DNA from: Escherichia phage IrisVonRoten
DNA length: 64,000 nucleotides
Sequence record: MZ501075
Direction: 5' to 3' (one strand)
Part shown: positions 1 to 24,980 of the stretch, piece after piece
Layout: every line of letters begins with the position of its first letter
How positions within the stretch are numbered: the stretch's first letter is position 1
Notes under the pieces: generated by a model
Told to the model about the DNA's origin: nothing
The model's database searches: none
The model's input: only the letters and a program-made list of their open reading frames with translations
Position numbers and translations under genes: made by a program

Positions 1-689
1 TGCTTTGAGGAAAATCTTTTAGCAAAAAGATAATCTTCTGCTTTAACTTCTCGCCAATTGCCTGTGGCTAAATCGCGATGAAATCCTGCATGACCTTGTA
101 GGATTGAAAACACAACAATACTCCTGTGTTGGAAATGAAATAAGTTTTCTTTAGGACTATTCAGAAAGAATAGAACAACTGTTACTGTCAATTTCTCAAC
201 AAATTAATTGCAAATACTGAAGTGGGGTGGCAACTTCCACTTTCACGCTGCGCTGCTGCCTCATTATATCGCACAAATCCTTGAGGATGGCCGCTAAGCC
301 AGATTTGCTCACCTAATGCTTCATATACTAGCTCATACTAGATGCAATATAACTTACAGAATCACGTCTCGGTAGTTTTTCACTCCTCCCATCTCACTTC
401 ACAACCACCTCATACTAGGTTGCTTCGAGGCCTTACCAGGGTTCCTATGGGACGCAGATCGCTAAGTATTCTATTAACTATTTGTTTAAAAACTAACACG
501 TAACAGTTAAAACAACCCTTAATGGGGCAGCCTAACTGTTCCGTATCGCGGATTGTAAACAAGAAAAATTAGTAAAACCAATTTTTACTAATGTCTCTCA
601 ATTCAATATAAATATTATATCAAGATTTTGAGTATCATGCAAGTAAAATTTTCCGGATGGTGCTATCAGTGTCTTTGAGTACAGAGAAA

Positions 690-715
690 ACCGAGCCAAA
701 ATGACTCGGTTATAC
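690..715 (-). terminator. Rho-independent terminator (minus strand) ending the minus-strand operon
   Basis: Hairpin aaccgagccaaaatgactcggtt; on minus strand followed by TTTTCTCT. Confidence 0.5.
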
Positions 716-718
716 GGA

Positions 719-913
719 TTAATCATAAAAAAGACCACGAATAGTATTAGCAAATTTAAGTATAATAGCGCGGTTTGAGCTACTTAACTTTTTAATATCG
801 AAAGTGGGATCAGTCAAATATCTCGCCATAAATTTTACTTGTTTAGCGGAAAGTTGACCCTTATTCCACTTTTTAATTTTACCATAACATACCCAATATT
901 CTTTATTCATCAT
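719..913 (-). CDS. hypothetical protein (64 aa)
   Basis: ORF track; start overlaps stop of upstream gene (operon-like packing). Confidence 0.35.
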   Translation of the reverse strand: MMNKEYWVCYGKIKKWNKGQLSAKQVKFMARYLTDPTFDIKKLSSSNRAIILKFANTIRGLFYD

Positions 914-1295
914 TTAGTCCCGGAACATAGATTCCAACACGATTTAATTGTTCTTTAGCTTCTTTGAGAATACCTGGAGTGTACTCCCAAATATCATCTT
1001 CCACCTGTAAAAGATGGGGCGAACAACCGTCACCAGGCACACGACATATGGCCAAACCACGTGGATGGAACAAAGAGAAATTTAGTGCAACAATTAAACC
1101 CATAGCAGACAATTCATTCCAATCCAATTCCCATTCCCTAGCGTAGCCTGATAGGAAAACACCAACACAGGGATCATCTATTTGCTGCTCTGGAAAAGTG
1201 AAGGAGGCTTGTCTTACCCCCAACCAACGTTGTAGCAGCTTCTCCGCACGCTTCACCAAACTAGGATCAATCTGACGCCAATATACTTGTTTCAT
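903..1295 (-). CDS. hypothetical protein, paralog of 1304..1732
   Basis: ORF track; shared motifs with neighbour (MGL[IV]xALN, W-Y-PG, C-terminal PGL). Confidence 0.5.
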   Translation of the reverse strand: MKQVYWRQIDPSLVKRAEKLLQRWLGVRQASFTFPEQQIDDPCVGVFLSGYAREWELDWNELSAMGLIVALNFSLFHPRGLAICRVPGDGCSPHLLQVEDDIWEYTPGILKEAKEQLNRVGIYVPGLNDE

Positions 1296-1303
1296 TGTGC
1301 CCC

Positions 1304-1732
1304 TTAGGCAGTTAAACCCGGAATTTGATAACCAAAACGACGAAGTTTTTGGATACCATCATTTACTTCTTCCGGTGAGTAAGACCAACCGTAATGTTCA
1401 TTAATTTGAAAGCCTGGAGATTCACTGGTTTTATAATTAACAACAATACGGTGTTTATTGGGCATAAATAGCTTATAGTTTAATGCAAAAACCAAGCCCA
1501 TTTCATCTAACTCTTTCCAGCCGACAATCTCTTCAAGACCATCCTCTACCTGCACAATTAAACCAATACAGGGAGCTTCTTCAATCTCACCTTTAAAAGC
1601 AAAGGAGATTTCATTATTCTCACACCATATTTTCAGAGCATTAATAGCCTCATTGTACAGGTTGTCTGGAAGAGTACGCCAAAAATTAACCAATATTGGG
1701 TTAGCTTCTTTAGAGAATACATTATTGAACAT
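1304..1732 (-). CDS. hypothetical protein, paralog of 903..1295
   Basis: ORF track; tandem paralog pair. Confidence 0.5.
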   Translation of the reverse strand: MFNNVFSKEANPILVNFWRTLPDNLYNEAINALKIWCENNEISFAFKGEIEEAPCIGLIVQVEDGLEEIVGWKELDEMGLVFALNYKLFMPNKHRIVVNYKTSESPGFQINEHYGWSYSPEEVNDGIQKLRRFGYQIPGLTA

Positions 1733-1734
1733 AT

Positions 1735-2241
1735 TTACACCTTAAATTGTTGTAGGGCTTTACACATTTCAAGATCTGGACTAAATTCTAACATATAGCT
1801 AACAGCTTTTAAATCTTGAAGATTTATTCCAGTTCTACCGTTGACTATAACCGTTGGATACTGGTACATCATAGCACCAGCGTCATCCAGCACACACCAA
1901 TGTTTGAGCTTATGCTTTTCAACAAAGCGAAGAACAGAATTACCCCTAGATAGCCCACCACCAGTAAAATCCGTTGTACCAAGAAAACGATCGATAAGAT
2001 CTAATCCGGTCATAATCTGAACGTTCTCCATCTCATTCCTAACAGAGAACCATGAAGATACCCCAACAATCATTATTGGAGAAGGACTAATAAAGTCCTG
2101 AAAAGCCTTGAGAAGCGGTTTAAAAACCCAGTCACTTCCAAAGAAAATCTTTTCATCATCAGGTGCATGGTGATGGGAGATGCTCGAGTTGAGCACCCCA
2201 TCAATATCTAGAAAAATAATTGGAGTATTACTTATTTCCAT
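1735..2241 (-). CDS. HAD-superfamily phosphatase-like protein
   Basis: N-terminal IFLDIDGVLN (DxDG motif) and later VLDD; manual motif reading only. Confidence 0.45.
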   Translation of the reverse strand: MEISNTPIIFLDIDGVLNSSISHHHAPDDEKIFFGSDWVFKPLLKAFQDFISPSPIMIVGVSSWFSVRNEMENVQIMTGLDLIDRFLGTTDFTGGGLSRGNSVLRFVEKHKLKHWCVLDDAGAMMYQYPTVIVNGRTGINLQDLKAVSYMLEFSPDLEMCKALQQFKV

Positions 2242-2410
2242 TTTTGTTCCTTTCTAAGAACGTATCATACTCAACTGTATCAACATATATGACACCATAG
2301 TCATCGGATTTATAGTCCATTTCCCATAGCTCACATCGATAGCACCAACTACCATCCGCCCATACAAATATATCATCGGGATGTGTATATACAGATTTAA
2401 CTATGGACAT
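2228..2410 (-). CDS. hypothetical protein (60 aa)
   Basis: ORF track; overlaps neighbours by few codons. Confidence 0.3.
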   Translation of the reverse strand: MSIVKSVYTHPDDIFVWADGSWCYRCELWEMDYKSDDYGVIYVDTVEYDTFLERNKNGNK

Positions 2411-3225
2411 ATCTGTTTCCCCGGCATATAAGGTCTACCCTCTAGATGAGCTTCCACACGAGCAATAAAACCAGGGTCACTGAAAGCATCTACCGCACCT
2501 TTACTCCAGTAAGGAATACCACGATCTTCCAGTTGGTACATATCACTACGAGTCATACCTTGATAGCCTGGTTCCGCCGCTAAGGCACTATCGTAGTAGT
2601 TAACTACCATAAGTTTCGCAGCAGTCCGATTAAGAACAGGGAATAATTCCCAGTAGAAGTTAATTACTTGGTTAGAGCAACCAACCACCACAATCATATC
2701 TTGACTGGTAATACCATCAAAAACATTGTACATCTCAGCGTATGCTGGAGCACACTCCCCAAAGAAGATTACATTAGGTTTAACCCATTTATAATCATCA
2801 GGGTCAATAGAGCTATACCCAACATCAATAACTCGTTTATTACTACTATTGTAGCTATCAGCTACAACAACCTCTTTTAAATACCCGTGAATGTGCAGAA
2901 TGTCACTATGTGGAACGCCAGCACGCTCAATAAGGTCATCAACGTTGGTAGTTAAGTTTACTACTTGACCCGGATATTTCTTATACCATTCACCAATACG
3001 CAGGTGTGCAAGATTGGGCTCAACAGTTTCTAACTCTTCACGACGTTTGTTGTAAAACATGTGGGTTTTATGATAAAAGTTACCACGAAAGGCATGAATA
3101 TTACATACCTCTTCTAAGTCATAATCATCCCACAATGCTTTACCACTAGCAGTATCAGTACGAAAAGCTCGTACACCACTTTCAACACTCAAACCCGCAC
3201 CGCTAATAATAATTAATCTACGCAC
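2401..3225 (-). CDS. Sir2-like (sirtuin family) NAD-dependent protein
   Basis: ISGAGLSVESGVRAFR...LW, NVDDLIERAG and HIHG motifs typical of SIR2 family. Confidence 0.7.
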   Translation of the reverse strand: MRRLIIISGAGLSVESGVRAFRTDTASGKALWDDYDLEEVCNIHAFRGNFYHKTHMFYNKRREELETVEPNLAHLRIGEWYKKYPGQVVNLTTNVDDLIERAGVPHSDILHIHGYLKEVVVADSYNSSNKRVIDVGYSSIDPDDYKWVKPNVIFFGECAPAYAEMYNVFDGITSQDMIVVVGCSNQVINFYWELFPVLNRTAAKLMVVNYYDSALAAEPGYQGMTRSDMYQLEDRGIPYWSKGAVDAFSDPGFIARVEAHLEGRPYMPGKQICP

Positions 3226-3419
3226 TATACGATTCCTTGCTTAAATCCTTCGATAATATTTCGGAGTAAAATTGCTTCCTCCGGGCGTACCTTTTCTTGT
3301 TTAATAAGCATATCCAATCTAGCAATACAAGTAGCTACACCAGCATTATAACCAAAGTTCCACTGCTCAATAAGCATGTTTTCTGGATTACTTTTTAGAT
3401 TCTGATTCAAGAAGTCCAT
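3225..3419 (-). CDS. hypothetical protein (64 aa)
   Basis: ORF track. Confidence 0.3.
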   Translation of the reverse strand: MDFLNQNLKSNPENMLIEQWNFGYNAGVATCIARLDMLIKQEKVRPEEAILLRNIIEGFKQGIV

Positions 3420-3591
3420 AAAGTTTCTCCTCTAGTTCCATAACACGATTTTCATAAGAAGCACGCAACTTTTCAATTGCCAGTGCACGCACTGTAACCT
3501 CATTAGAATTAATAGCTAGTTGGGCCAGATCTTCTGTTTCCATACGTCCGTTGTAAATTAAGCGATATTTAAGATGTTTTACGTTTTTCAT
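3388..3591 (-). CDS. hypothetical protein (67 aa)
   Basis: ORF track. Confidence 0.3.
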   Translation of the reverse strand: MKNVKHLKYRLIYNGRMETEDLAQLAINSNEVTVRALAIEKLRASYENRVMELEEKLYGLLESESKK

Positions 3592-3899
3592 TCTTGTTCC
3601 TCAAACATTTCAATTTCTGCATTAGCAATAGAAAGGGCGGGCTCAGATAAGCACAATCACGCCCTAAGATCAATCTTCTCTTCGTCCATCCAAGTATTTA
3701 CTAAACATAATTTAGTTATACCCTCACGGAGAATGGAACCATATGCCCCAGAATCCATAATAAAATAGATACGTTCTTTATCTACCTTGTGAACTCTCAT
3801 ATCTTTCTCCTCTCAAATTTATAAATCTATTATATATAAATTTTTGGCTGAAAGCAAATAAAATAAAAGCCAGGTCGACTAGCAACCCGGCTGATTAGC

Positions 3900-5774
3900 T
3901 TATTTAGCTCGAATATCCTGATGTTTCACCCTGCCCATAACCTCGTGCTGTTTGCCGGGGTTAAATGGACGAGCACCTGGATTTCCAAGATACCCACAAA
4001 CTCGACGAGTTACTTCAAGAGTTTCGGGGTCATGATTACCACAGATAGGGCACTTAAACCCATCTTCGGATGCTACTGTTTCACCTAAGAATCCACATTT
4101 ACCGCAAGAATCCACTGGAGTATTAATACCGAAGTAATGAACTTTACTAGCAGCATAATTAATAACCCATTCCAGTGCATCTGGGAATCGTTTCATATCT
4201 GGTAGTTCTACATAGGAAATACACCCACCAGAAGCAATAGGAGTAAAGTTAGATTCATAATCAAATTTCACGTTAGGAGCAACTTTACGTTCCACATCAA
4301 GGTGGTGAGAGTTGGTGTAGTATCCTTTGGACAGAATATCTTCATGCTCCGGGAAATATTCACGGTCTAGACGACAAAAGCGATCACATAGGGACTCTGA
4401 TGGTGTAGCATACAGGCTATAACCTAACTTAGTCTCTTCCTTCTTCTGATCGACCCTATCCCGCATGTACTGCAATACACGCTGAACAAACTTGATGCAG
4501 GTCTCAGACATTGTATCTACATCTTTGCCAAACATGAACTGTAGCATTTCATGGCAACCAATATACCCCAGAGATACAGAAGCACGGTTATAGAAATGAT
4601 CGAATACATATTCATCCGGCCCTAAGCGTAGTCCAAAGGCTCCTGACATATAGAGGATGGGTGCGGCTTTAGCTTGAATGTACTTTAAGCGATCAACTCT
4701 CCACTCCAATGCTTTTAACGCTGTATCCACACGTAGCTCGAGCAAATCAAAGAATAGATCAATATTCCCTTCAGCTTCGATAGCAATTCTAGGCAGGTTT
4801 ACAGAAACAACACCTAAGTTATTACGACCTGCAGTTTCACCATCTTCTGTAGCAGCCAGGAATGAACGGCAGCCCATAGAAACTTTATAGTCACCAGTAA
4901 CTTCCACAACCTTATCGTAGCTGATATAGTCGGGATACATACGTTCAGCAGTACATTTCATAGCTAACTTCTTGACGTCATAATTAACATCTCCTGGCTT
5001 CATATTTACGCCATCACGCAGAACAAACACCAGTTTCGGGAAGATAGCTGTACGTTTATTGATACCTAAACCATCCATGCGTACTTTCAGTATTGCTTTC
5101 TGTACTAGACGTGCTTCCCAAGAAGTTCCTAGACCAAAACCAAAGGTAATAAATGGACTCTGACCATTAGAGTTGAACATGGTATTGATTTCATATTCTA
5201 AACCCTGACAAGCGTCATAGACTTCTTTTTCAGTCATCTCCGTAGCCATTACGGATGCTTTGGCTTCATCCTTAGTCCAACGTTTTGCAAACGCATGATT
5301 TTTGTCATAGGATTTACGAACATAAGGGGCTAATACTTCATCAAGGCGATCTACAGAAGTACCACCATACTGATGGGAGCTAACCTGAGTGATAATCTGA
5401 GCAGTAATAGCCGCCGCAGTAGTGATAGAGTTTGGAGTGCTAATTTCAGCATTACCAACCTTCATACCATTCTTCAACATATCTTCCAAAGCTACCAGAC
5501 AACAGTTAGTCATACCTAATGCAGCATAATCAGCATCATGGAAATGAATATCTCCAATCATATGAGCATTTCGAATCTGAATTGGCATTTCTTCTAGAAT
5601 CAGATATTTACTTAACTCCCCTGCAAGCATATCCCTTTGTGTAGGGAAACGCTCAGAGGGTTTATTCGCATTATTAAAGAGAAGCTCTTCATCAGCAGAA
5701 CCCTCAATAATTTCTTTGCAGTTTCTAATCAAGGACTGCATTTCCTTGTATTTTAGTTCATCATTGCGATTCAT
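3900..5774 (-). CDS. nrdD: anaerobic ribonucleoside-triphosphate reductase (class III RNR)
   Basis: 624 aa; C-terminal Cys cluster CGKCGF...CPICG and glycyl-radical motif RRVCGYLG. Confidence 0.9.
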   Translation of the reverse strand: MNRNDELKYKEMQSLIRNCKEIIEGSADEELLFNNANKPSERFPTQRDMLAGELSKYLILEEMPIQIRNAHMIGDIHFHDADYAALGMTNCCLVALEDMLKNGMKVGNAEISTPNSITTAAAITAQIITQVSSHQYGGTSVDRLDEVLAPYVRKSYDKNHAFAKRWTKDEAKASVMATEMTEKEVYDACQGLEYEINTMFNSNGQSPFITFGFGLGTSWEARLVQKAILKVRMDGLGINKRTAIFPKLVFVLRDGVNMKPGDVNYDVKKLAMKCTAERMYPDYISYDKVVEVTGDYKVSMGCRSFLAATEDGETAGRNNLGVVSVNLPRIAIEAEGNIDLFFDLLELRVDTALKALEWRVDRLKYIQAKAAPILYMSGAFGLRLGPDEYVFDHFYNRASVSLGYIGCHEMLQFMFGKDVDTMSETCIKFVQRVLQYMRDRVDQKKEETKLGYSLYATPSESLCDRFCRLDREYFPEHEDILSKGYYTNSHHLDVERKVAPNVKFDYESNFTPIASGGCISYVELPDMKRFPDALEWVINYAASKVHYFGINTPVDSCGKCGFLGETVASEDGFKCPICGNHDPETLEVTRRVCGYLGNPGARPFNPGKQHEVMGRVKHQDIRAK

Positions 5775-5803: not shown

Positions 5804-5832
5804 ATTATAGCTTATTCAAGGGCAAATGTCAA
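5804..5832 (-). promoter_or_regulatory. consensus sigma70 promoter for nrdD (TTGACA-17-TATAAT on minus strand)
   Basis: Minus-strand reading ttgacatttgcccttgaataagctataat just upstream of nrdD start. Confidence 0.6.
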
Positions 5833-15023: not shown

Positions 15024-15725
15024 ATGAAAGTAAAACCATTTGGTATGCTAGATATTGAATCTCTAGGAACTCCAGGAGATTGTGGTACTACTCATATCGC
15101 AATGCCTTCTTTCGCTTTTGTGGCTATGCACGGAATTGATAAAGACCCTGATCTAGTGTTTGTTACTTTGGATGTACAAGATCAGCTTAACTCTGGAGCT
15201 AAAGTTACGGCATCTACTCTAGCATTCTGGATGGATCAAGCTAAGAATAGCCCATCAGCTCTACATATTATGGAAGCTATGAAGGAATGCAATCCAAAGC
15301 TGATTGCTTTTCAAGATGGTAAACATCACTGTACTAATAAGCTAGGCTCTAACTATGCAGCTTATTCTATGGCTAAAAACATTATGGAGTTGGCTCTAGG
15401 TGAGAATGCTTTGTATTATGGCAATGGCCCAGAGTTTGATATGACTATCTACTCTGCAAACACTTTCCATGCTGGAACCAATGAAGAAATAGTTCCGTGG
15501 AAATTCTGGAACTTAGGCAATGTTCGATCTCTCCGCAATCTCTGGATGCAGGCTGGTTATAGTTACAAAGACCTAGAAGCAGAGGGAATTAGCTGGGCAA
15601 AAGCTAAGATGGAGAAGATGGACACTATTCGTTATGGGATCTATCCGGTTAAGCATGATCCAGCATTCGATGCCTTAGTTGAGAGCTATTGTGTTGCAGC
15701 TATGGTCGAAAAAATCAAAATTTGA
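15024..15725 (+). CDS. putative DEDDh-type 3'-5' exonuclease
   Basis: N-terminal MLDIESLG (Exo I DxE-like) and C-terminal HDPAFDA (Exo III H-x4-D-like); motif reading only. Confidence 0.4.
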   Translation: MKVKPFGMLDIESLGTPGDCGTTHIAMPSFAFVAMHGIDKDPDLVFVTLDVQDQLNSGAKVTASTLAFWMDQAKNSPSALHIMEAMKECNPKLIAFQDGKHHCTNKLGSNYAAYSMAKNIMELALGENALYYGNGPEFDMTIYSANTFHAGTNEEIVPWKFWNLGNVRSLRNLWMQAGYSYKDLEAEGISWAKAKMEKMDTIRYGIYPVKHDPAFDALVESYCVAAMVEKIKI

Positions 15726-18603: not shown

Positions 18604-18826
18604 ATATTCATAAATTAGAGAACAGCGAGCCGATTACGCTGAGTGCAGAATCCCAACCGGAGCGCATTGAATAGAGTCGGTGGGTTAGTTGGAAAACTAG
18701 TACACAGGGGGCGGCAATCCCGGTTAGTGGCTAGAACGTGTAAAATGGGGCGTCTGAAACCTCTCCCCTAAACTCTTCTTTAATTTACTGATAGTGGGGT
18801 GTGGAAATCACTTATGTAGTAACACT

Positions 18827-18899
18827 GCCGATCTAGTATAAAACGGTATTATCAAGCCGTAACTGGTGGAAGATGTAGGTTCGAATCCTACGGTCGGTA
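18827..18899 (+). tRNA. tRNA-like gene; canonical acceptor and T-arm, anticodon arm unresolved
   Basis: Acceptor gccgatc/ggtcggt; T-arm gtagg-ttcgaat-cctac. Confidence 0.45.
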
Positions 18900-19401
18900 A
18901 GAACTGGATAACTGGTGCTTTTAATGTAAAAGCTTCCGAGGTTAGTTGCGCACTGCCTAAACCACGCGGTAGTTGGTTCCAGACTAACCAACCAGTCTGC
19001 TGAATAGTTTTATTACGATTTAACTATGTCCAGGCTAAAGAAGAACTTTAGAAGGTATTCTAGGATAGTGAAGTTCTTTCTCCATATCGGAGTAGTTTTT
19101 CAAACTATCCACAAAGTGGGAAATGCTGGCATGAGAGATGCCACTAATGGTGCACAATAGCACAGGTAATTCGCGATAACTCCTGTTGAGTAGCAGCAAA
19201 AAGGTGGGGAGTCATGACCCTAACCTAACCGAGTCCTCAGTATACCGCAGGACATAACCACTAAGTCACCTTGACTTAAACTGGAAAATAATAGACGTTA
19301 CTGTATTTTGTCTTGAAATACTTAATGAGTGAGACTTATGACTCTCCCGGTATCGTCTGTATTTTTAAGAGTTTTTACGAGAGTTCTTAAAAATACTTAA
19401 A

Positions 19402-19473
19402 CGGGGTGTAGTCTAAGGGAGAGGCAGGAGTCTTCTAAATTCCTTTATGCAGGTTCGAATCCTGTCACCTCGG
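19402..19473 (+). tRNA. tRNA-Arg (anticodon TCT)
   Basis: Acceptor cggggtg/cacctcg, T-arm gcagg-ttcgaat-cctgt, anticodon loop cttctaa, encoded CCA. Confidence 0.65.
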
Positions 19474-19510
19474 CCAATTTTATTAACTGTAACTAAAACA
19501 AAGGAAATAT

Positions 19511-20458
19511 ATGTCTAATACTAAAAATATGAAAGAACTGACTTCTGAGCAAAAAGTAATTCGCACTATTAAACGTTGGAGTATTGGTGCTGTAGTTGGT
19601 TTAGCAGGTTTAATCCTAGCTTTTAATTCATATACTATTGTTTCTGATGGTACGGTTAAAACCCAAACATTTCTAGGTAAAGTAGATCCTAACCCAGTAT
19701 TACCTGGTTTCCATCTTGTAAACCCATTTGCATCTTTCGATACTTTTAGTACAAAAGATATTGCTGTAAAATTAGATAAACTTCAGGTTCCTAGCCAGGA
19801 TAAGTTTAAATCCACTGTTGACCTGACTGTTATGTTGCAGTTTGATGGTTCTAAGGCACCGATCAACCGTATTAATGCGGGTACTCAAGATCAGGCTCTA
19901 GATAAGTATGTAACTGAAAAATTACTGTCTACTATTCGTGAGTTTGGTAAGTCTGTACCTAAAGCACAAGATTTGTTTGATGCTAAAATTCAAGCACAAT
20001 TGCAAACTGCAATTCAACAGGAAGTTGAAGAGTATGCACGCCCCTATGGTTACACAGTTAAGCAAGTGTTCCTTCAGGATATTACATTGCCACCGGTAAT
20101 TATGGAACAGGTACAGAATACCAAAGTTCGCGAAGAACAAGTTAATGCTGCGAAAGCTGAATTAGCTCGCGTTGAACAAGAAGCACAGCAGAAGGTTAAA
20201 CAAGCAGAAGCAGATCGTGAAGCTCGTAACAACCAAGCTATTGCAAACGAACGTGATGCAGATGCTAAACTGTATGCAGCTAAGAAAGAAGCTGAAGCTA
20301 ACGCTGCTCTGCAACGTACCATTACTCCTGAGATGATTCGCTGGAAGCAACTAGAAGTTGAAATGATTCGTGCTCAGAAGTATCAAGGTGGTGTACCGCA
20401 GACTGTGGTTGGCACTGGTTATGATGGCCAGATGATTATGGATATGCGTAACAAGTAA
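19511..20458 (+). CDS. SPFH/band-7 (prohibitin/HflC-like) membrane protein
   Basis: N-terminal TM helix then SPFH-like core; C-terminal coiled-coil. Confidence 0.6.
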   Translation: MSNTKNMKELTSEQKVIRTIKRWSIGAVVGLAGLILAFNSYTIVSDGTVKTQTFLGKVDPNPVLPGFHLVNPFASFDTFSTKDIAVKLDKLQVPSQDKFKSTVDLTVMLQFDGSKAPINRINAGTQDQALDKYVTEKLLSTIREFGKSVPKAQDLFDAKIQAQLQTAIQQEVEEYARPYGYTVKQVFLQDITLPPVIMEQVQNTKVREEQVNAAKAELARVEQEAQQKVKQAEADREARNNQAIANERDADAKLYAAKKEAEANAALQRTITPEMIRWKQLEVEMIRAQKYQGGVPQTVVGTGYDGQMIMDMRNK

Positions 20459-20482
20459 TACCCACACGTAATATTCGAAGTA

Positions 20483-20518
20483 AGCCCTGCGTTCCCTGGA
20501 GAGCGCAGGGCTTTTCTG
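20483..20518 (+). terminator. Rho-independent terminator
   Basis: gccctgcg..cgcagggc hairpin then TTTTCTG. Confidence 0.6.
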
Positions 20519-20534
20519 TATTTAAGATAAGAGA

Positions 20535-20572
20535 AAAGCCCCTAAGTCTTTCGACTAGGGGCTTTTTATTAT
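20535..20572. terminator. bidirectional terminator hairpin
   Basis: agcccctag..ctaggggct flanked by T-tracts on both strands. Confidence 0.6.
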
Positions 20573-20579
20573 TGGTTCT

Positions 20580-20774
20580 TTAGAACCATATACTCTTGTT
20601 ACAGCAACCACCCATACGGGAGGCCAATCTTGACTGAAAATCTACTCTAGGGGGCAGGATAAGAGTAGGCTTAAAGGCAAAGGGATTGAACGCCGGTATT
20701 TGTGTAAACATTGCTGGAGAGCAACAACGTGCTACAGGCATTGGGCAGCACGAAACAGATTTTCTGCAACACAT
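20580..20774 (-). CDS. Cys-rich small protein (64 aa, 9 Cys)
   Basis: Strong RBS taaggagg upstream on minus strand. Confidence 0.45.
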   Translation of the reverse strand: MCCRKSVSCCPMPVARCCSPAMFTQIPAFNPFAFKPTLILPPRVDFQSRLASRMGGCCNKSIWF

Positions 20775-20783
20775 AATTCCTCC

Positions 20784-21200
20784 TTAGGAGTTATTACCAC
20801 CATTTTGAGCTTTTGCAACTTGGCTTTGGCAGAAGCTATTAAACTTACCCATAAGTGATACAAGCTGCTTCCCATCCTCTGTCTTTGCGAAGTCTTCGAA
20901 AAGGGCTAGTACTGCTTGTCCTTCCGTAGAAACCTGCGGTTGTTGGGTTTGCTGCTGAACTTGCTGCTGAGGCACCTGTTGCTGCATTTGTTGAGGCATT
21001 TGCGACTGCCCGCTCATTTGCTGCATCATTTGCATAGGACTCACACTTCCAGGGTTTTGCTGGAAGTGTTGCTGCATCTGTTGCGCTTCTGCTAAACGCT
21101 GTTGCAACTGTTGTAGGTAAGGATTATCCAGACCCGGAACGGGCTGCTGGGAGCCCATTGGTTGATTAAATCCGTTGTTTACAAAACCATATTTACTCAT
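20784..21200 (-). CDS. Gln-rich low-complexity protein
   Basis: 138 aa, long Q/M-rich repeats. Confidence 0.5.
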   Translation of the reverse strand: MSKYGFVNNGFNQPMGSQQPVPGLDNPYLQQLQQRLAEAQQMQQHFQQNPGSVSPMQMMQQMSGQSQMPQQMQQQVPQQQVQQQTQQPQVSTEGQAVLALFEDFAKTEDGKQLVSLMGKFNSFCQSQVAKAQNGGNNS

Positions 21201-21221
21201 AATGGGCTCCTCCCCTTAATT

Positions 21222-22202
21222 TTAAGCCGGCAGTTTAGCCTGCAGACCAGCCAGAGTCTGAGTGATAGCACCAAGACTTACAGCGATTTGATTAATTACC
21301 TGACCGTTAGCACCACTACCTGCAGCGATTGCTTCGCGCAGACGGCATTCATTCAGTTCGTCCTGGATACGTGCAGTAGTTACACCAGCGATTGCAGTCT
21401 GAAGCTCACAGCAACATTCAGCAAGCTGACGTTCGATAGCGTTCTGGTTAGCACACATCTGAGCCTGAACAGCGGCAAACTGGTTGTTGGTCTGAATAGA
21501 CTGCTGGAAAGCAATCTGAGCAGAGTCAAACTTATCTTGAGCACGTGCGATCTGGTTAGCAGCGAAAGATTGATCCATCTGACGAGAAAGATCGAATTGA
21601 CCCTGAATAACGTTACGAGTTTCAGCACAGATCTGGTTTGACAGATTAGCACCTGTACCATAGATAGTAGTCAGAACTTGCTGAGTGCTAGCAGCTTGAG
21701 CAGCTCCCACACCGTTTACTGCGCTTAGAACAGCCCCAGTGCCCTGGTTAGCTTCTGTACGAGTAGTATTGATTGCAGCTAGAATACTTGCAGTATCTTG
21801 GTTAGAAAGGATCGCGTCCACAGCAGTCCCTTCAGCGGCAACGCCAGCACCACGGCCAAAACCACCAAAACCACCAAATCCGCCCGTTAATAGAGCACCG
21901 ATTAGGATAGCTCCGAATAGACCCATACCTTCTCCACCGAAAGCACTTGCGTTAGCTGGGAATGCACCCATGCCAGGGAAGCCGTTAGTAAATACGTTTA
22001 CTGGTTCTTGCATTTTATGTTTTCCATATTTATGACAATGTTCATCATAGTCATCTTCTTCATCTTTATCATCGTGTTCACGATGTTCTTCTTCGTAGGC
22101 TTTGACTTTCTCCCACTTTTTCTTATCTGATTCCTCGTGACGGTGCAGTTCTGCTGCTACGCTAGCGACGGTTTCAGGACTCTTAGCTACTTCTTCTGTC
22201 AT
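21222..22202 (-). CDS. Gly-rich membrane-associated protein with acidic/His-rich N-terminus
   Basis: Start set at MTEEV after RBS aggaggtg; GGFGGFGGFGRG segment and TM stretch. Confidence 0.5.
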   Translation of the reverse strand: MTEEVAKSPETVASVAAELHRHEESDKKKWEKVKAYEEEHREHDDKDEEDDYDEHCHKYGKHKMQEPVNVFTNGFPGMGAFPANASAFGGEGMGLFGAILIGALLTGGFGGFGGFGRGAGVAAEGTAVDAILSNQDTASILAAINTTRTEANQGTGAVLSAVNGVGAAQAASTQQVLTTIYGTGANLSNQICAETRNVIQGQFDLSRQMDQSFAANQIARAQDKFDSAQIAFQQSIQTNNQFAAVQAQMCANQNAIERQLAECCCELQTAIAGVTTARIQDELNECRLREAIAAGSGANGQVINQIAVSLGAITQTLAGLQAKLPA

Positions 22203-22409
22203 TTTTTGACACCTCCTAGTATATAGAAAATGTGTGTCTCTTTGATCACTCATCCATAACATATACTTTACACTACCCTGGCAAAAATGTCAAGGGGTCT
22301 TTAAAAATTGCCCCCAGATTTTTAGTGGGGTCACAAATTTCGGTCCTGACCACTTACCTGCTACCCTTAAGCACCCTGTGATTTTCCTCTAAAAAGTTAA
22401 AAAATTCAA

Positions 22410-22438
22410 TTGCTTGAATGCTAAATTCTCTGTATAAT
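22410..22438 (+). promoter_or_regulatory. T5-type early promoter
   Basis: ttgcttgaatgctaaattctctgtataat. Confidence 0.55.
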
Positions 22439-22468
22439 ATATTTATAAATTTGAGAGAGGAATCTAGT

Positions 22469-22987
22469 ATGACTGTTGATGAACTAACAGAACACCTCTT
22501 ATCTAGAGGGTTTGATGCAGATAAATATCATTGCTGGTTAAGCCCGGAAGGATGGCTAACAGTACCATTGTATGACTTCTCTGGGATGTTGAGAGGCTAT
22601 CAGACGTATAATCCTTCTGCTCCAAAAGGTCATGGTAAATCTCCTTTTGAAGCTAAGTATTTTACTTATTCTACTACACAGTGTGTATGGGGGCTGGAAA
22701 CTCTCAATGGGGATGAAAAAGTAGTATTGGTTGCGGAATCTGTATTTAAGGCTGTAGCATTACATAACGCTGGTTATCCAGCCCTGGCAATGTTGGGTTC
22801 TTCTCCAGGAAAAGCGTTGTTAAAGCAATTGAAATTACTACCTTTTAAATTGGTAGCTGTTGGGGATAATGATCCTGCTGGTGAAAAATTTGCTAGACAA
22901 TTAAATGGATTTGTTTCTCCTGTAGATGTGGATGAGATGTCTACCGAAAACTTGAAAAATTTTCTTGCTATGAAGCTAAATTTCTAA
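22469..22987 (+). CDS. Toprim-domain-like protein
   Basis: VVLVAESVFKA...VAVGDNDPAG (E ... DxD Toprim-like); start at ATG after RBS gagagagg. Confidence 0.45.
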   Translation: MTVDELTEHLLSRGFDADKYHCWLSPEGWLTVPLYDFSGMLRGYQTYNPSAPKGHGKSPFEAKYFTYSTTQCVWGLETLNGDEKVVLVAESVFKAVALHNAGYPALAMLGSSPGKALLKQLKLLPFKLVAVGDNDPAGEKFARQLNGFVSPVDVDEMSTENLKNFLAMKLNF

Positions 22988-22993
22988 TATAAT
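22965..22993 (+). promoter_or_regulatory. T5-type promoter embedded in 3' end of preceding CDS, driving tRNAs
   Basis: ttgctatgaagctaaatttctaatataat. Confidence 0.5.
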
Positions 22994-23008
22994 ATATCTT
23001 ATAAATTC

Positions 23009-23094
23009 GGAAGAATAGCATAACGGTATTGCAGCAGATTGCTAATCTGTCGGTTTGAAATATAGCCTTGTGGGTTCGATTCCCACTTCTTCCG
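23009..23094 (+). tRNA. tRNA-Ser (anticodon GCT), long variable arm
   Basis: Acceptor ggaagaa/ttcttcc, T-arm gtggg-ttcgatt-cccac, anticodon loop ttgctaa, encoded CCA. Confidence 0.65.
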
Positions 23095-23103
23095 CCAAAT
23101 TCT

Positions 23104-23178
23104 GGTTCTCAAGCTCATATGGTATGAGCACCCGGCTCATAACCGGAAGGTACGTAGGTTCGAATCCTCGGGGAGCCA
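23104..23178 (+). tRNA. tRNA (anticodon CAT; Met or Ile2)
   Basis: Acceptor ggttctc/gggagcc, D-arm gctc..gagc, anticodon loop ctcataa; T-stem imperfect. Confidence 0.55.
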
Positions 23179-23202
23179 CCATCTTGATTAGAGAGGTTAC
23201 AA

Positions 23203-23391
23203 GTGGAACTATACCTAGTTTGTGTTGTGTTTATTCCAGATAGGGAATACCCGGATGAATATAAAAAAGGATATAGGTTAGCTAGGGCTACCTCTGAAGC
23301 TCAGGCTATGGATAAAGTGGCAGATTATATGATTACGGTAGAAAACGTACACTATATCGACTCCCTTGAAGCCTCAAAAGTAATTGAATAA
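23203..23391 (+). CDS. hypothetical protein (62 aa)
   Basis: ORF track. Confidence 0.3.
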   Translation: MELYLVCVVFIPDREYPDEYKKGYRLARATSEAQAMDKVADYMITVENVHYIDSLEASKVIE

Positions 23392-23400
23392 GGAAACTAT

Positions 23401-23586
23401 ATGTCTAAGTTTCAAGAACTCAAGCAAGAGCTAGAAGAATGTGCCTGCCCTGAATGTCGGGGGATTGGAGAAAGTTCTGATGCAGAAGCAGGGGATACTT
23501 TTTGCAATATCTGGGTTTGCCCTACATGCAAAGGCACAGGCATTAATCCTACCTGTGGTATTTCTCTAGATATTGAACGAGGTTGA
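23401..23586 (+). CDS. zinc-ribbon small protein (CPECRG..CPTCKG)
   Basis: Two CxxC pairs. Confidence 0.4.
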   Translation: MSKFQELKQELEECACPECRGIGESSDAEAGDTFCNIWVCPTCKGTGINPTCGISLDIERG

Positions 23587-23688
23587 TACCCGTGAAACTA
23601 AAAGATTATTATATTGGTTGGTTTGTAGGATTAGTAGTAGGGTTTTCTCTAGGCTATAATATGTATCAACTAATAAACTGATTACATG

Positions 23689-23762
23689 GGGGGTGTAATC
23701 GAATTGGCATAGGTACTGGACTTAAAATTCAGGTTTTGTGGGTTCGAATCCCACCACCCCTA
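23689..23762 (+). tRNA. tRNA, anticodon tentatively TAA (Leu) but class-I length
   Basis: Acceptor gggggtg/cacccct, T-arm gtggg-ttcgaat-cccac, anticodon loop cttaaaa. Confidence 0.5.
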
Positions 23763-23940
23763 CCAACTTAAGGAAATAAGATGTATAGACATCCACCTCC
23801 GCCAACACGTCGTTCTAGGGAAGTCATCCTCATGGAATTGACGAAAAACTTCAAGGCGACCCTTGAGGATAGAGACTTAGGCACAGATGAAGACGTTGAT
23901 TTCATCTGTAAACTATTAAAAATGAAACTGGAGAAACAAC

Positions 23941-24147
23941 ATGGCTAATCCTGAAATTACCATGCAACGATTCATGGCTAAAGGCATGATAGCCGAGGCA
24001 GGCATTGAACAAGAAGTAAAAAGTTATTACGAACAGATTAAGGATATTATAGACTCTGCTAAAAACACCGGAGAAAAAGAACACGGTGCGGCAATTATGG
24101 CTATAACTCTTATTAGTCTAGACTTGGCCGAAGAATCCGGAGTTTAG
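23941..24147 (+). CDS. hypothetical protein (68 aa)
   Basis: ORF track. Confidence 0.4.
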   Translation: MANPEITMQRFMAKGMIAEAGIEQEVKSYYEQIKDIIDSAKNTGEKEHGAAIMAITLISLDLAEESGV

Positions 24148-24177
24148 CTCCTCCAAACAGAATTTTTAAAAATGTAC

Positions 24178-24207
24178 TTGCCTTTTGCTTTAAATCTCTG
24201 ATATAAT
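24178..24207 (+). promoter_or_regulatory. T5-type early promoter
   Basis: ttgccttttgctttaaatctctgatataat. Confidence 0.5.
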
Positions 24208-24237
24208 AGTTATATAAATTGATGAAGGAGTTAACTA

Positions 24238-24513
24238 ATGCAAAATCGTGTTGTAGCAACTGGTATTGAAAGTGCAATCTGTAAATCCTGGGAAGACTGG
24301 GAAGGTGAGATTGAGTGGCTCTATCTCTATAACGTAGAACTCCTGCCGGAAGTTAAAGCTAAATGTGTTGAAGCTGGCATGGCTCCAGATGCAAAAGCTG
24401 ATATTGATATTTCAATGCCTGAACTTAAAGGTCGTGTAGTTACCGTTAGTAATGAGGGCGAAGAAGTTTTTGAACTTCCGTTCTCCTTAACTGTCACTCC
24501 TAAGTTCGACTAA
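24238..24513 (+). CDS. hypothetical protein (91 aa)
   Basis: ORF after RBS aaggag. Confidence 0.45.
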   Translation: MQNRVVATGIESAICKSWEDWEGEIEWLYLYNVELLPEVKAKCVEAGMAPDAKADIDISMPELKGRVVTVSNEGEEVFELPFSLTVTPKFD

Positions 24514-24549
24514 CTAATACAGCACTGAGCAAGTTCTTCAAAATCTGAC

Positions 24550-24578
24550 TTGCTCAGTGCCTTAAAACTTGATATAAT
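24550..24578 (+). promoter_or_regulatory. T5-type promoter driving tRNA cluster
   Basis: ttgctcagtgccttaaaacttgatataat. Confidence 0.5.
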
Positions 24579-24641
24579 AGTTATCTAATTTGGAAACATA
24601 TTTAAAAGTGTTTAAACAAGTATTTGAATGCTTCTAAATAT

Positions 24642-24726
24642 GGGCGTTTATTCCGTAAGTGGTAGCGGAGGGGATTGTAAATCCCCGGTCATTGCGACTC
24701 GAGTGGTTCGACTCCATTAACGCCCA
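24642..24726 (+). tRNA. tRNA-Tyr (anticodon GTA), long variable arm
   Basis: Acceptor gggcgtt/aacgccc, anticodon arm gggga-ttgtaaa-tcccc, encoded CCA. Confidence 0.65.
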
Positions 24727-24737
24727 CCAAATTTAAT

Positions 24738-24809
24738 ACACCTATCGTCTAAAGGCTAGGACATCAGGATTTCAATCTGAGAATCGGAGTTCAATTCTCC
24801 GTGGGTGTA
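24738..24809 (+). tRNA. tRNA-Glu (anticodon TTC)
   Basis: Acceptor acaccta/tgggtgt, T-arm cggag-ttcaatt-ctccg, anticodon loop atttcaa. Confidence 0.65.
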
Positions 24810-24820
24810 CCAATTTCTGC

Positions 24821-24894
24821 ATTCCTAGAGTGTTACTGGACAGCATGTCGGTCTCCAAAACCGTACGGTCTAGGTTCGAGTCCTAGTAGGTTTG
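24821..24894 (+). tRNA. tRNA-Trp-like (anticodon CCA) with mismatched acceptor stem
   Basis: T-arm ctagg-ttcgagt-cctag; anticodon loop ctccaaa; acceptor has two U-U mismatches. Confidence 0.4.
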
Positions 24895-24903
24895 CCAAAA
24901 TTT

Positions 24904-24975
24904 GCACCTTTAGCTGAGATGGATTAGCGCTTGCCTGAAGAGCTTGAGAGGTTCGTTCGATACGAACAGGGTGCA
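24904..24975 (+). tRNA. tRNA (tentatively Phe, GAA)
   Basis: Acceptor gcacctt/agggtgc, T-arm gttcg-ttcgata-cgaac; anticodon stem imperfect. Confidence 0.45.
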
Positions 24976-24980
24976 CCAAA

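What the first reader, a model, noticed from the sequence alone, without database searches (positions are those of the whole stretch)
903..3225. Minus-strand operon: Sir2-like protein, HAD-like phosphatase and tandem paralogs
A sirtuin-family protein (GAGxSxxSG..FR and HG motifs) is co-transcribed with a DxDG HAD-like hydrolase and two paralogous small proteins, all tightly packed with overlapping stops and starts. Sir2 domains are NADases or ADP-ribosyltransferases in bacterial immune systems. A phage-borne version with a phosphatase partner could manipulate NAD or ADP-ribose pools.
Basis: partly seen in the sequence, partly recalled or inferred. Interest (0 to 1): 0.6.

Follow-up and report, generated by a model that had tools for sequence, protein, structure and literature searches.

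The report
T5 phage sirtuin–phosphatase accessory gene cluster
This is the long-annotated Sir2-like/HAD phosphatase early gene cluster (T5.100–T5.107) of a T5-like phage. The domain calls are right, the pairing was already described and predicted to heal broken RNA ends using NAD+, and nobody has yet tested what it does.

Summary
On the minus strand, 903-3225 encodes a Sir2-family protein (PF02146, E 3.8e-24), a HAD_SAK_2 phosphatase (PF18143, E 2e-20) and two paralogous DUF7415 proteins (31% identical).

The window is a T5-like phage, and the cluster is T5.100-T5.107, annotated in the T5 reference record and present in about 445 phage records. Iyer et al. 2022 (PMC9503650) already described this sirtuin plus "Swiss-army-knife" HAD neighbourhood and predicted Tpt1/KptA-like, NAD+-dependent RNA 2'-phosphate removal.

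The sirtuin keeps every NAD+-pocket and catalytic residue but lacks the zinc tetrad. It resembles CobB/Sirt5, not defence-type Sir2 NADases.

- HAD occurs next to Sir2 only in Markadamsvirinae.
- Sir2 plus two DUF7415 proteins is the unit conserved across divergent T5-like phages.
- Sir2 and the small ORF are exchanged together as a cassette.
- HAD_SAK_2 and DUF7415 homologs flank an Rnl1-type RNA ligase in Aeromonas phages.
- DUF7415 has no informative fold match.
- In a published T5 knockdown screen, Sir2 and HAD are dispensable, while T5.107 (paralog B) scores as fitness-relevant.

The RNA-repair model is favoured but unproven, and a protein deacylase role remains a strong rival. The cluster is already known, so interest is modest.

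The parts
3868..3892 (-). Terminator-like hairpin (10-bp stem plus T-run) just after the nrdD stop. It marks the upstream boundary of the cluster.
   Evidence: T5 annotates a terminator and then a promoter at the equivalent place.
3757..3784 (-). Weak sigma-70-like promoter match (9/12), a candidate promoter for the cluster.
   Evidence: consensus scan only. T5 annotates a promoter between nrdD and T5.100.
3388..3591 (-). 67-aa ORF, ortholog of T5.101 (phrog_5236), function unknown.
3225..3419 (-). 64-aa ORF (phrog_5827), function unknown. Its stop overlaps the Sir2 GTG start by 1 nt.
2401..3225 (-). Zinc-less, class-III-like sirtuin (T5.102 ortholog, 95% identical). It has an intact NAD+ pocket and catalytic His113.
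   Evidence: Pfam SIR2 E 3.8e-24. Best PDB match is E. coli CobB, by sequence at 9e-18 and by fold at TM 0.70/0.84. Invariant motifs, and 0-1 Cys in the small domain of 32 homologs.
2228..2410 (-). 60-aa acidic protein (phrog_5116, T5.103/T5.104 family). It is exchanged together with Sir2 between phages.
1735..2241 (-). HAD_SAK_2-type phosphatase (T5.105 ortholog, 98% identical) with motif I DIDGV and motif IV VLDD.
   Evidence: Pfam PF18143 E 2.1e-20 over profile positions 1-138 of 139. LDIDGVLNS is identical in the Aeromonas phage homologs.
1304..1732 (-). DUF7415 protein, A-type (T5.106 ortholog, two Pfam DUF7415 matches). Its C-terminal core has lost the conserved HP and R residues.
903..1295 (-). 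DUF7415 protein, B-type (T5.107 ortholog, two Pfam DUF7415 matches). It keeps the canonical core motif DWNELS..GL..LN...HP.GLA..R...G.SP. The AF2 model is confident but has no informative fold match.
   Evidence: The T5 ortholog scores 'Fit' in the CRISPRi-ART screen.
719..913 (-). 64-aa basic ORF (phrog_29527) overlapping paralog B by 11 nt. It is absent from T5 itself.
689..711 (-). Terminator-like hairpin (10-bp stem), the downstream boundary of the cluster.
   Evidence: T5 annotates a terminator after T5.107.

Best explanation
This is the early accessory cluster T5.100-T5.107 of a T5-like phage.

Shown:
- It encodes a sirtuin with a complete NAD+-binding and catalytic apparatus, but with no zinc-binding tetrad.
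- A small acidic partner is inherited together with the sirtuin.
- It encodes a HAD phosphatase of the RNA-repair-associated HAD_SAK_2 type.
- It encodes two DUF7415 proteins, each with two Pfam DUF7415 matches.

Inferred:
- The sirtuin spends NAD+ to ADP-ribosylate an anionic group, most likely a phosphate. The favoured model is a Tpt1/KptA-like attack of an RNA 2'-phosphate on NAD+, which releases nicotinamide and clears the phosphate.
- The HAD enzyme removes terminal 2'/3' phosphates from RNA ends, or the phosphate of the ADP-ribose by-product.
- Together they would heal tRNA or mRNA ends cut by host anticodon-type nucleases, so that a ligase (host-encoded in this phage) can reseal them.
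- The DUF7415 pair and the small ORFs are accessory. At least paralog B probably has a role of its own.
For: 1. The HAD matches Pfam 'HAD domain in Swiss Army Knife RNA repair proteins' end to end.
2. Sir2 orthologs sit beside RNA-end enzymes in other phage lineages. At 58% identity (DrSchubert, Vequintavirus) and 49% (Erwinia phage Hena1, Henunavirus; both Vequintavirinae), the sirtuin lies next to RNA ligase, polynucleotide kinase and a phosphoesterase. In jumbo phage CBB it sits between a small gene annotated 'RNA ligase' (148 aa, read here as 2H-like from its size) and a Nudix hydrolase.
3. Independently, HAD_SAK_2 and DUF7415 homologs flank a T4 Rnl1-type RNA ligase and lie near a PolyA_pol-head-domain (CCA-adding-type) nucleotidyltransferase in Aeh1-like Aeromonas phages. 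The T5 record's own notes point to the same Aeh1 ORFs.
4. The phage sirtuin clade keeps invariant GAG-S, FR, N-V-D, H-G, FFGE, G-S and N. It also keeps the class-III Y-x-x-R pair, which in Sirt5/CobB binds an anionic acyl group (role taken from established knowledge).
5. Sir2 and HAD are 'Not Fit' (dispensable) in a T5 knockdown screen on a laboratory host, as expected of conditional counter-defence genes.
6. The phage carries 25 tRNA genes.
7. The same model was proposed from comparative genomics in PMC9503650, section 3.7.3.
Against: - No sirtuin has been shown to act on RNA. The literature searches found no biochemical test of any phage sirtuin.
- The nearest characterised relatives are protein deacylases.
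- No RNA ligase, polynucleotide kinase, 2H or Nudix homolog is present in the 64-kb window. The pathway would therefore depend on host enzymes, and nothing in the window would generate a 2'-phosphate.
- The Sir2-HAD adjacency is confined to one lineage. HAD is missing next to Sir2 in Klebsiella phage Sugarland and in two divergent T5-like contigs.
- Single-domain DUF7415 proteins occur in unrelated contexts: after the P2 gpA-like replication initiator in 44 of 80 loci, and between nrdD and nrdG.
- T5.107 is 'Fit' while Sir2 is not, so the genes need not form one functional unit.
Confidence: 0.4

Rival explanations
1. The sirtuin is a conventional NAD+-dependent protein lysine deacylase of the CobB/Sirt5 type (deacetylase or desuccinylase). 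It would reprogramme host or phage proteins early in infection. The HAD phosphatase and the DUF7415 proteins would be unrelated neighbours.
For: - The best sequence and fold matches are E. coli CobB, Sir2Af1 and SIRT5.
- NCBIfam CobB-type deacylase models are the only hits.
- The catalytic His, FGE loop and class-III Y-x-x-R are invariant.
- This is the standard database annotation and the reading given for Vibrio phage sirtuins (PMC5107563).
- The neighbourhood linkage to HAD is lineage-restricted.
Against: - Scores of about 100 bits are far below the CobB family cutoffs of 221-395 bits.
- The zinc tetrad, which shapes the peptide-binding cleft in canonical sirtuins, is absent in all 32 clade members.
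- An invariant Q-to-T change sits in the NID motif.
- The clade recurs next to RNA-end-processing enzymes in at least three phage lineages. A protein deacylase does not explain that.
Confidence: 0.3
2. The sirtuin and the phosphatase act on small NAD+/ADP-ribose-derived molecules, for example by consuming NAD+, destroying or sequestering immune signals, or clearing toxic ADPR-phosphates. That would tune NAD metabolism or blunt NAD-based defences such as Thoeris, DSR or Sir2-HerA.
For: - Sir2 orthologs lie within about 5 kb of NAD+ salvage genes: NadV and PrsA in Hena1, and NadM-like plus NadV and a Nudix in CBB.
- T5-like phages are reported to carry the NARP3 NAD+-rebuilding pathway (PMC13464706), and the T5 reference and the T5-like phage HildyBeyeler encode an NAD-dependent DNA ligase.
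- DUF7415 proteins are small, acidic and widespread in phages, with no enzyme-like fold match. That would suit a binder or inhibitor.
Against: - There is no similarity to defence-type NADase Sir2 domains.
- A phage that depends on NAD+ and rebuilds it gains little from a free NADase.
- The HAD belongs to a family named for RNA-end repair.
- No Macro, NADAR or Nudix partner is in the cluster.
- No experimental link was found.
Confidence: 0.15
3. The cluster is not one system. It is a mosaic of independent early accessory genes kept adjacent by descent. Sir2 plus the 60-aa ORF form one unit, the HAD is a separate insertion, and the DUF7415 pair serves another process such as replication or host takeover.
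For: - Sir2 and the small ORF are swapped together (52% and 57% identity) between flanks that stay 90-98% identical.
- HAD is present or absent independently.
- Single-domain DUF7415 sits after the P2 gpA-like initiator in 44 of 80 loci.
- T5.107 is 'Fit' while T5.100-T5.106 are 'Not Fit'.
- Gene overlaps are ordinary in this genome.
Against: - HAD_SAK_2 and DUF7415 co-occur again around an RNA ligase in an unrelated phage family.
- Sir2 followed by two DUF7415 genes is kept in the same order across T5-like phages whose Sir2 is only 41-56% identical.
Confidence: 0.15

Closest known systems
Sirtuin-centred predicted RNA-repair neighbourhood, type 3 (Escherichia phage SP15 group), Iyer, Burroughs, Anantharaman and Aravind 2022 (PMC9503650, section 3.7.3)
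   Same: It is the same gene pair in the same phage group. SP15 proteins are 96-98% identical to the window's paralog A and HAD. [quoted passage not shown]
   Different: Nothing of substance differs. This window is another instance. The passages read from the paper do not mention the DUF7415 pair, the 60-aa partner, or the absence of HAD in other Demerecviridae.
E. coli CobB / human SIRT5 (class III sirtuin protein deacylases)
   Same: Same fold (TM 0.70/0.84 to 1s5p). It shares GAGxS, the FR loop, N-x-D, the catalytic His-Gly, FGE, and the Y-x-x-R pair.
   Different: Only about 24% identity. Scores fall far below the CobB equivalog cutoffs. All four zinc-ligand cysteines are missing and the small domain is shortened to 39-57 residues. 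The Q of the QNxD motif is an invariant T. There is a C-terminal extension of about 50 residues.
Tpt1/KptA RNA 2'-phosphotransferase
   Same: The proposed chemistry is the same: NAD+ is used as an ADP-ribose donor to remove an RNA 2'-phosphate, releasing nicotinamide. The contexts with RNA ligase and kinase in related phages are analogous.
   Different: The fold and family are unrelated, so any resemblance is functional only. The activity has not been demonstrated for any sirtuin.
Defence-associated Sir2 NADases (ThsA, DSR1/2, Sir2-HerA)
   Same: They share the Sir2 superfamily Rossmann fold and use of NAD+.
   Different: There is no PADLOC hit. The protein matches Pfam SIR2 (PF02146), the canonical sirtuin model. 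It has no sensor or partner domains, and it is phage-encoded in an early metabolic region.
T4 Pnkp 3'-phosphatase domain (HAD) and the T4 Pnkp-Rnl1 tRNA repair pathway
   Same: It has a DxDG(T/V) HAD phosphatase motif. HAD_SAK_2 homologs sit two genes upstream of an Rnl1-type ligase in Aeh1-like phages.
   Different: It is a stand-alone 168-aa protein without a kinase domain. It has no detectable sequence match to any solved structure. No RNA ligase is found in this window.

Membership tests
Sirtuin / Sir2 family (Pfam PF02146) | Profile match above the curated threshold | tested here: met
   86 bits against a cutoff of 24, E 3.8e-24, covering profile positions 1-178 of 180.
Sirtuin / Sir2 family (Pfam PF02146) | NAD+-binding motifs (GAGxS, FR loop, N-x-D, G-S, N) and the catalytic His | tested here: met
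   G9-A10-G11-S13, F21-R22, N94-V95-D96, H113-G114, F154-F155-E157, G182-S184 and N209 are invariant in 32 homologs. The Q before N is an invariant T.
Sirtuin / Sir2 family (Pfam PF02146) | Cys4 zinc-binding module in the small domain | tested here: not met
   0-1 Cys between the catalytic His and FGE in all 32 clade members. The CobB cysteines align to non-Cys residues or gaps.
Sirtuin / Sir2 family (Pfam PF02146) | Sirtuin fold | tested here: met
   AF2 model with pLDDT 86.7. Foldseek gives E 1.4e-16 and TM 0.70/0.84 to CobB 1s5p.
CobB-type protein deacylase (NCBIfam equivalogs) | Score above the curated equivalog or subfamily cutoff | tested here: not met
   Best score is 100.6 bits against a cutoff of 243. 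Other models score 43-90 bits against cutoffs of 221-395.
CobB-type protein deacylase (NCBIfam equivalogs) | NAD+-dependent removal of acyl groups from lysine | not testable with these tools
   Needs an enzyme assay.
Defence-associated Sir2 NADases (PADLOC models) | Match to any defence-system Sir2 model | tested here: not met
   No family at E <= 0.01.
HAD superfamily, HAD_SAK_2 (PF18143) | Profile match above threshold, together with motif I DxDx(T/V) and the motif IV acidic pair | tested here: met
   73.9 bits against a cutoff of 27.5, covering profile positions 1-138 of 139. D12-I-D14-G-V and V-L-D-D are in the sequence. LDIDGVLNS is conserved in the Aeromonas phage homologs.
HAD superfamily, HAD_SAK_2 (PF18143) | Phosphatase activity on RNA 2'/3' terminal phosphates | not testable with these tools
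   This is only a family-name prediction. No solved or characterised relative was found.
Sirtuin-HAD predicted RNA-repair neighbourhood (PMC9503650, type 3) | A phage-clade sirtuin adjacent to a SAK-like HAD, with no Macro domain gene | tested here: met
   Sir2 and HAD are separated only by a 60-aa ORF. No Macro, NADAR or Nudix hit appears among the cluster ORFs. SP15 orthologs are 96-98% identical.
Sirtuin-HAD predicted RNA-repair neighbourhood (PMC9503650, type 3) | Actual RNA 2'-phosphate removal or RNA repair | not testable with these tools
   No experimental report was found.
Tpt1/KptA family | Tpt1 fold and sequence family | tested here: not met
   No cluster protein matches it. The sirtuin is a Rossmann-fold protein. 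The resemblance is only a functional analogy.
DUF7415 (PF24187) | Profile match above threshold | tested here: met
   112.6 and 106.8 bits against a cutoff of 27, with two matched stretches in each paralog.

The most novel reading that the evidence does not exclude
The zinc-less phage sirtuin is a nucleic-acid enzyme. It would be a convergent analogue of Tpt1 that uses NAD+ to strip 2'-phosphates (or otherwise ADP-ribosylate phosphorylated ends) from nuclease-damaged tRNA. It would work with the HAD end-phosphatase as a counter-defence that matters only on hosts armed with anticodon-type nucleases. The DUF7415 fold, which has no known relative and whose B paralog is needed for T5 fitness, would be a new partner or regulator class.
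Probability: 0.3. Interest if true: 0.7.

Novelty: already known. Interest (0 to 1): 0.3.

Why it matters
This sirtuin clade is found in about 1,000 sequenced phage genomes: T5-like, rV5-like, Phapecoctavirus, KVP40-like and jumbo phages. Databases uniformly label it 'NAD-dependent deacetylase', yet no function has been tested.

If it really acts on RNA phosphates, it would add a new chemistry to the sirtuin superfamily. It would also add a new arm to phage tRNA-repair counter-defence. If it is a protein deacylase, it would be a phage tool for rewriting host acylation.

Either way, the present finding adds no new system. Its value lies in sharper experimental targets:
- the Sir2 plus 60-aa ORF cassette;
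- the fact that HAD is optional;
- the DUF7415 pair, whose T5.107 member has a fitness phenotype.

Tried and rejected
- **Defence-type Sir2 NADase.** Rejected: no PADLOC hit.
- **CobB equivalog.** Rejected as a membership claim: scores are far below the cutoffs.
- **DUF7415 as a 2H phosphoesterase.** Considered because each paralog has two Pfam DUF7415 matches. Rejected: no HxT/S motifs appear in the sequence.
- **DUF7415 as an nrdD partner.** It lies between nrdD and nrdG in a Klebsiella T4-like phage. This is not general: none of the 80 viral loci had NrdD nearby.
- **DUF7415 as RNA-repair-specific.** Only 3 of 80 single-domain loci sit by an RNA ligase, while 44 of 80 follow a P2 gpA-like replication initiator.
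- **afdb50 fold search.** The library was unavailable.
- **Phage RNA ligase, kinase, 2H, Nudix, NadV or CCA-adding homologs in the window.** None found.
- **Homologs of the 60-aa ORF downstream of Sir2 in Hena1 and nieznany.** None found.
- **The primary HAD_SAK paper (PMC5062991).** Not held in the library.
- **Literature on DUF7415 or T5.102-T5.107 by name in main texts.** Nothing found. Only the CRISPRi-ART supplements carry data.
Full report
**What is there**

The minus strand of window 689-3892 carries a tightly packed run of nine ORFs downstream of an anaerobic ribonucleotide reductase gene (nrdD, 3900-5774). In transcription order they are:

| Coordinates | Size | Identity |
|---|---|---|
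| 3657-3800 | 47 aa | unknown |
| 3388-3591 | 67 aa | phrog_5236 |
| 3225-3419 | 64 aa | phrog_5827 |
| 2401-3225 | 274 aa | Sir2-family protein |
| 2228-2410 | 60 aa | phrog_5116 |
| 1735-2241 | 168 aa | HAD phosphatase |
| 1304-1732 | 142 aa | DUF7415 paralog A |
| 903-1295 | 130 aa | DUF7415 paralog B |
| 719-913 | 64 aa | phrog_29527 |

- Pfam SIR2: E 3.8e-24, 86 bits against a cutoff of 24.
- Pfam HAD_SAK_2: E 2.1e-20, covering the profile end to end.
- DUF7415: E 1e-32 and 6e-31, with two matched stretches in each paralog.

The two paralogs are 31% identical (E 2e-18). From the 64-aa ORF (3225-3419) onward, junctions are overlaps of 1-14 nt or gaps of 2-8 nt, and each gene is preceded by a purine-rich candidate ribosome-binding sequence. 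The two small upstream junctions are looser, with a 65-nt gap and a 32-nt overlap. Terminator-like hairpins lie at 3892-3868 and 711-689.

**Where it comes from**

The window is a T5-like phage (Demerecviridae, Markadamsvirinae). Region 600-3700 matches 445 phage records at 60-100% identity (384 of them at 80% or more), mostly Salmonella and Escherichia T5-like phages. The window also holds the typical cluster of 25 tRNA genes.

In the T5 reference genome the cluster is T5.100-T5.107:
- T5.102 is annotated 'Sir2'.
- T5.105 is the HAD, with a note 'similar to AEH1ORF303C'.
- An annotated promoter precedes T5.100, and an annotated terminator follows T5.107.

Identity of the window proteins to T5 is 93-98%. 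Gene overlaps are ordinary throughout this region, so packing alone is not evidence of functional linkage.

**Prior knowledge**

Iyer, Burroughs, Anantharaman and Aravind (2022; PMC9503650, section 3.7.3) described a distinct clade of phage sirtuins in three conserved neighbourhoods. [quoted passage not shown] They proposed that these sirtuins act like KptA/Tpt1, removing RNA 2'-phosphates with NAD+. SP15 proteins are 96-98% identical to the window's.

The finding is therefore an instance of an already described, computationally predicted system. I found no biochemical or genetic study of any phage sirtuin.

**The sirtuin**

By sequence, the best solved relatives are E. coli CobB (9e-18), archaeal Sir2Af1 (4e-15) and SIRT5. 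An AlphaFold model (pLDDT 86.7) superposes best on CobB, with TM 0.70/0.84.

Across 32 phage homologs at 55-93% identity, these residues are invariant:
- G9-A10-G11-S13, S16-G17 and F21-R22;
- T93-N94-V95-D96;
- H113-G114;
- F154-F155-E157;
- G182-S184 and N209.

The class-III pair Y58/R61 is also invariant. In Sirt5 and CobB that pair binds an anionic acyl group (role taken from established knowledge).

Two departures from canonical sirtuins are clade-wide:
- The Q of the Q-N-x-D motif is always T.
- The stretch between the catalytic His and the FGE motif has 0-1 cysteines in all 32 sequences, so the Cys4 zinc module is absent. PMC5107563 reports the same for Vibrio phage sirtuins.

NCBIfam CobB-type models hit at about 100 bits against cutoffs of 221-395, so the protein is not a CobB equivalog. 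No PADLOC defence model matches, so it is not a ThsA, DSR or Sir2-HerA-type NADase. The enzyme is almost certainly NAD+-dependent and active. Its acceptor is undetermined.

**Context of the sirtuin clade elsewhere**

tblastn finds this clade in 992 phage records. The neighbourhoods I inspected were:
- **rV5-like phage DrSchubert (58% identity).** The sirtuin lies beside RNA ligase, polynucleotide kinase, a phosphoesterase and six tRNA genes.
- **Erwinia phage Hena1 (49%).** The order is metallophosphatase, RNA ligase, kinase, then Sir2 and DNA ligase. NadV and PrsA lie about 5 kb away. Its ligase, kinase and phosphoesterase are homologous to those of DrSchubert.
- **Jumbo phage CBB.** NadM-like and NadV genes are followed by a 148-aa gene annotated 'RNA ligase' (read here as 2H-like from its size), then Sir2, Nudix and PhoH/PIN.
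- **Phapecoctavirus nieznany and a Vibrio schizoT4 phage.** No informative annotated neighbours.

Two associations therefore recur: RNA-end-processing enzymes and NAD+ salvage enzymes.

**The HAD and the DUF7415 proteins**

The HAD carries motif I (LDIDGV) and motif IV (VLDD). It has no detectable relative among solved structures.

Next to Sir2, the HAD is restricted to Markadamsvirinae. Klebsiella phage Sugarland and two divergent T5-like metagenomic contigs have the order nrdD, small ORF(s), Sir2, (small ORF), DUF7415-A, DUF7415-B, origin-binding helicase, with no HAD. Independently, a HAD_SAK_2 homolog with an identical LDIDGVLNS motif lies two genes upstream of a T4 Rnl1-type RNA ligase in Aeh1-like Aeromonas phages. 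There a single-domain DUF7415 gene overlaps the ligase stop codon, and a gene with a PolyA_pol head domain (CCA-adding-type nucleotidyltransferase) follows.

DUF7415 is a small family. Only 59 cluster representatives reach E <= 1e-3 among 1.84 billion proteins. Its core is about 55 aa: DWNE.S..GL...IN...LHP.GLA..R.P..G.SP..LV.DDG.WEY. Paralog B keeps this core. The A-type has lost the HP and R residues.

The paralog B model is confident (pLDDT 93), but it has no informative fold match:
- Among viral models, only other DUF7415 proteins match.

Most members are acidic.

Single-domain forms are promiscuous in context:
- 44 of 80 viral loci place it directly after a P2 gpA-like replication initiator.
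- In a Klebsiella T4-like phage it lies between nrdD and nrdG.
- Only three loci place it by an RNA ligase.

**Mosaic structure and genetics**

Salmonella phage PMBT22 compares with the window as follows:

| Protein | Identity to window |
|---|---|
| NrdD | 97.6% |
| The two upstream small ORFs (67 aa, 64 aa) | 96% and 92% |
| Sir2 | 51.8% |
| 60-aa ORF | 57% |
| HAD | 90% |
| DUF7415 paralogs | 71% |

Sir2 and the small ORF have therefore been exchanged as a cassette, which marks them as a co-inherited pair.

In the CRISPRi-ART transcriptome-wide knockdown screen of T5 (PMC11879866, supplementary files 1 and 16), T5.100-T5.106, including Sir2 and HAD, are 'Not Fit'. T5.107, the paralog B ortholog, is one of only 17 'Fit' genes (score -2.90, 0.0215). 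The screen is insensitive: even the origin-binding protein scores 'Not Fit'. Still, it indicates two things. Sir2 and HAD are dispensable on a laboratory host, and paralog B has a role not explained by simply assisting Sir2.

**Interpretation**

*Favoured model (about 0.4).* This is the published one: an NAD+-consuming sirtuin acting on phosphorylated RNA ends, with the HAD as an end-phosphatase, forming a conditional counter-defence against RNA-cleaving host systems.

Support comes from four lines:
- the HAD family assignment;
- the recurrence of orthologous sirtuins beside ligase, kinase, 2H-like or phosphoesterase genes in other lineages;
- the independent HAD_SAK_2, DUF7415 and Rnl1 arrangement in Aeromonas phages;
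- dispensability in the laboratory.

Four points count against it:
- The window has no ligase, kinase or 2H gene.
- The Sir2-HAD link is lineage-restricted.
- All characterised relatives are protein deacylases.
- No such activity has been shown for a sirtuin.

*Rivals.* A CobB/Sirt5-like deacylase role is a strong rival (about 0.3). It remains possible that the cluster is a mosaic of independent genes (about 0.15).

**Verdict**

The feature is real and the domains were read correctly. It is already known: it is in the T5 reference annotation, and the neighbourhood was interpreted in 2022. It remains experimentally open. Interest is 0.3.

Noticed in passing
window 1735-2241; also T5.105 in L091 3589-4095: The HAD phosphatase is widely mis-annotated as 'Sir2 (NAD-dependent deacetylase)'. 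PHROG phrog_18062, labelled Sir2, matches the C-terminal 92 residues of the HAD at E 2.4e-58 and the true Sir2 only at 1.7e-6. RefSeq T5.105 and many T5-like records therefore list two 'Sir2' genes.
   Followed up: partly
L094 (Salmonella phage PMBT22) 4001-4985, against window 2228-3225: Sir2 and the adjacent small ORF are only 52% and 57% identical to the window's copies. The flanking genes stay 90-98% identical. This is a cassette-like allelic replacement of Sir2 together with its small partner.
   Followed up: partly
L091 (phage T5) 3244-3602, against window 2228-2410: T5 carries two tandem copies of the small phrog_5116 gene (T5.103 and T5.104) between Sir2 and HAD. This window has one.
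   Followed up: no
T5.107, the ortholog of window 903-1295: In the published CRISPRi-ART T5 screen, this DUF7415 protein is one of only 17 'Fit' genes. Sir2, HAD and paralog A are 'Not Fit' (PMC11879866 supplements).
   Followed up: partly
IMG/VR loci L015-L090 (for example L064 3155-5791, with the DUF7415 gene at about 6001): Single-domain DUF7415 genes directly follow, often overlapping, a P2 gpA-like rolling-circle replication initiator in 44 of 80 viral loci. A TraR/DksA-type zinc-finger gene and a Dam-like methylase are frequently nearby. These calls come from reading the sequences, not from profile searches. This matches the T5 record's note that T5.106 is 'similar to ORF91'.
   Followed up: partly
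L009 (Klebsiella phage Lion_ER11) 4980-5213: A 77-aa single-domain DUF7415 gene sits between nrdD and nrdG. In T5-like phages the DUF7415 pair is also only a few genes from nrdD.
   Followed up: no
L010 (Aeromonas phage AsFcp_1) 3781-9049; also L011-L013: The gene run is thymidylate synthase, HAD_SAK_2, DUF4326, a GIY-YIG protein, T4 Rnl1-type RNA ligase and DUF7415, followed by a PolyA_pol-head (CCA-adding-type) nucleotidyltransferase gene. The AsFcp_1 HAD appears frameshifted at its N-terminus, whereas L012 and L013 keep LDIDGVLNS.
   Followed up: partly
window 20784-22262: This interval has the highest G+C in the window (0.467 against 0.36-0.43 elsewhere). It holds two minus-strand ORFs (346 aa, phrog_8119; 138 aa, phrog_7894) inside an otherwise plus-strand tRNA/early region. 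Neither has a Pfam hit, and the pair is conserved in 422 T5-like records.
   Followed up: partly
window 5804-5832 (minus strand): A perfect 12/12 sigma-70 consensus promoter (TTGACA, 17 nt, TATAAT) lies just upstream of nrdD.
   Followed up: no
window 18826-32353: 25 tRNA genes lie on the plus strand. They include an ARAGORN call of tRNA-Ser with anticodon ACT, which is unusual and may be a miscall or a suppressor-like gene.
   Followed up: no
L002 (phage HildyBeyeler), against window 3900-5774: NrdD is only 60% identical between HildyBeyeler and the window, while the adjacent Sir2 cluster is 93-98% identical. A second mosaic breakpoint therefore lies between nrdD and the cluster.
   Followed up: no
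window 15024-15725, 19511-20458, 43517-44392: Other accessory enzymes were seen in the window: an Rv2179c-like 3'-5' exoribonuclease, an SPFH/Band-7 protein and a calcineurin-like phosphoesterase.
   Followed up: no
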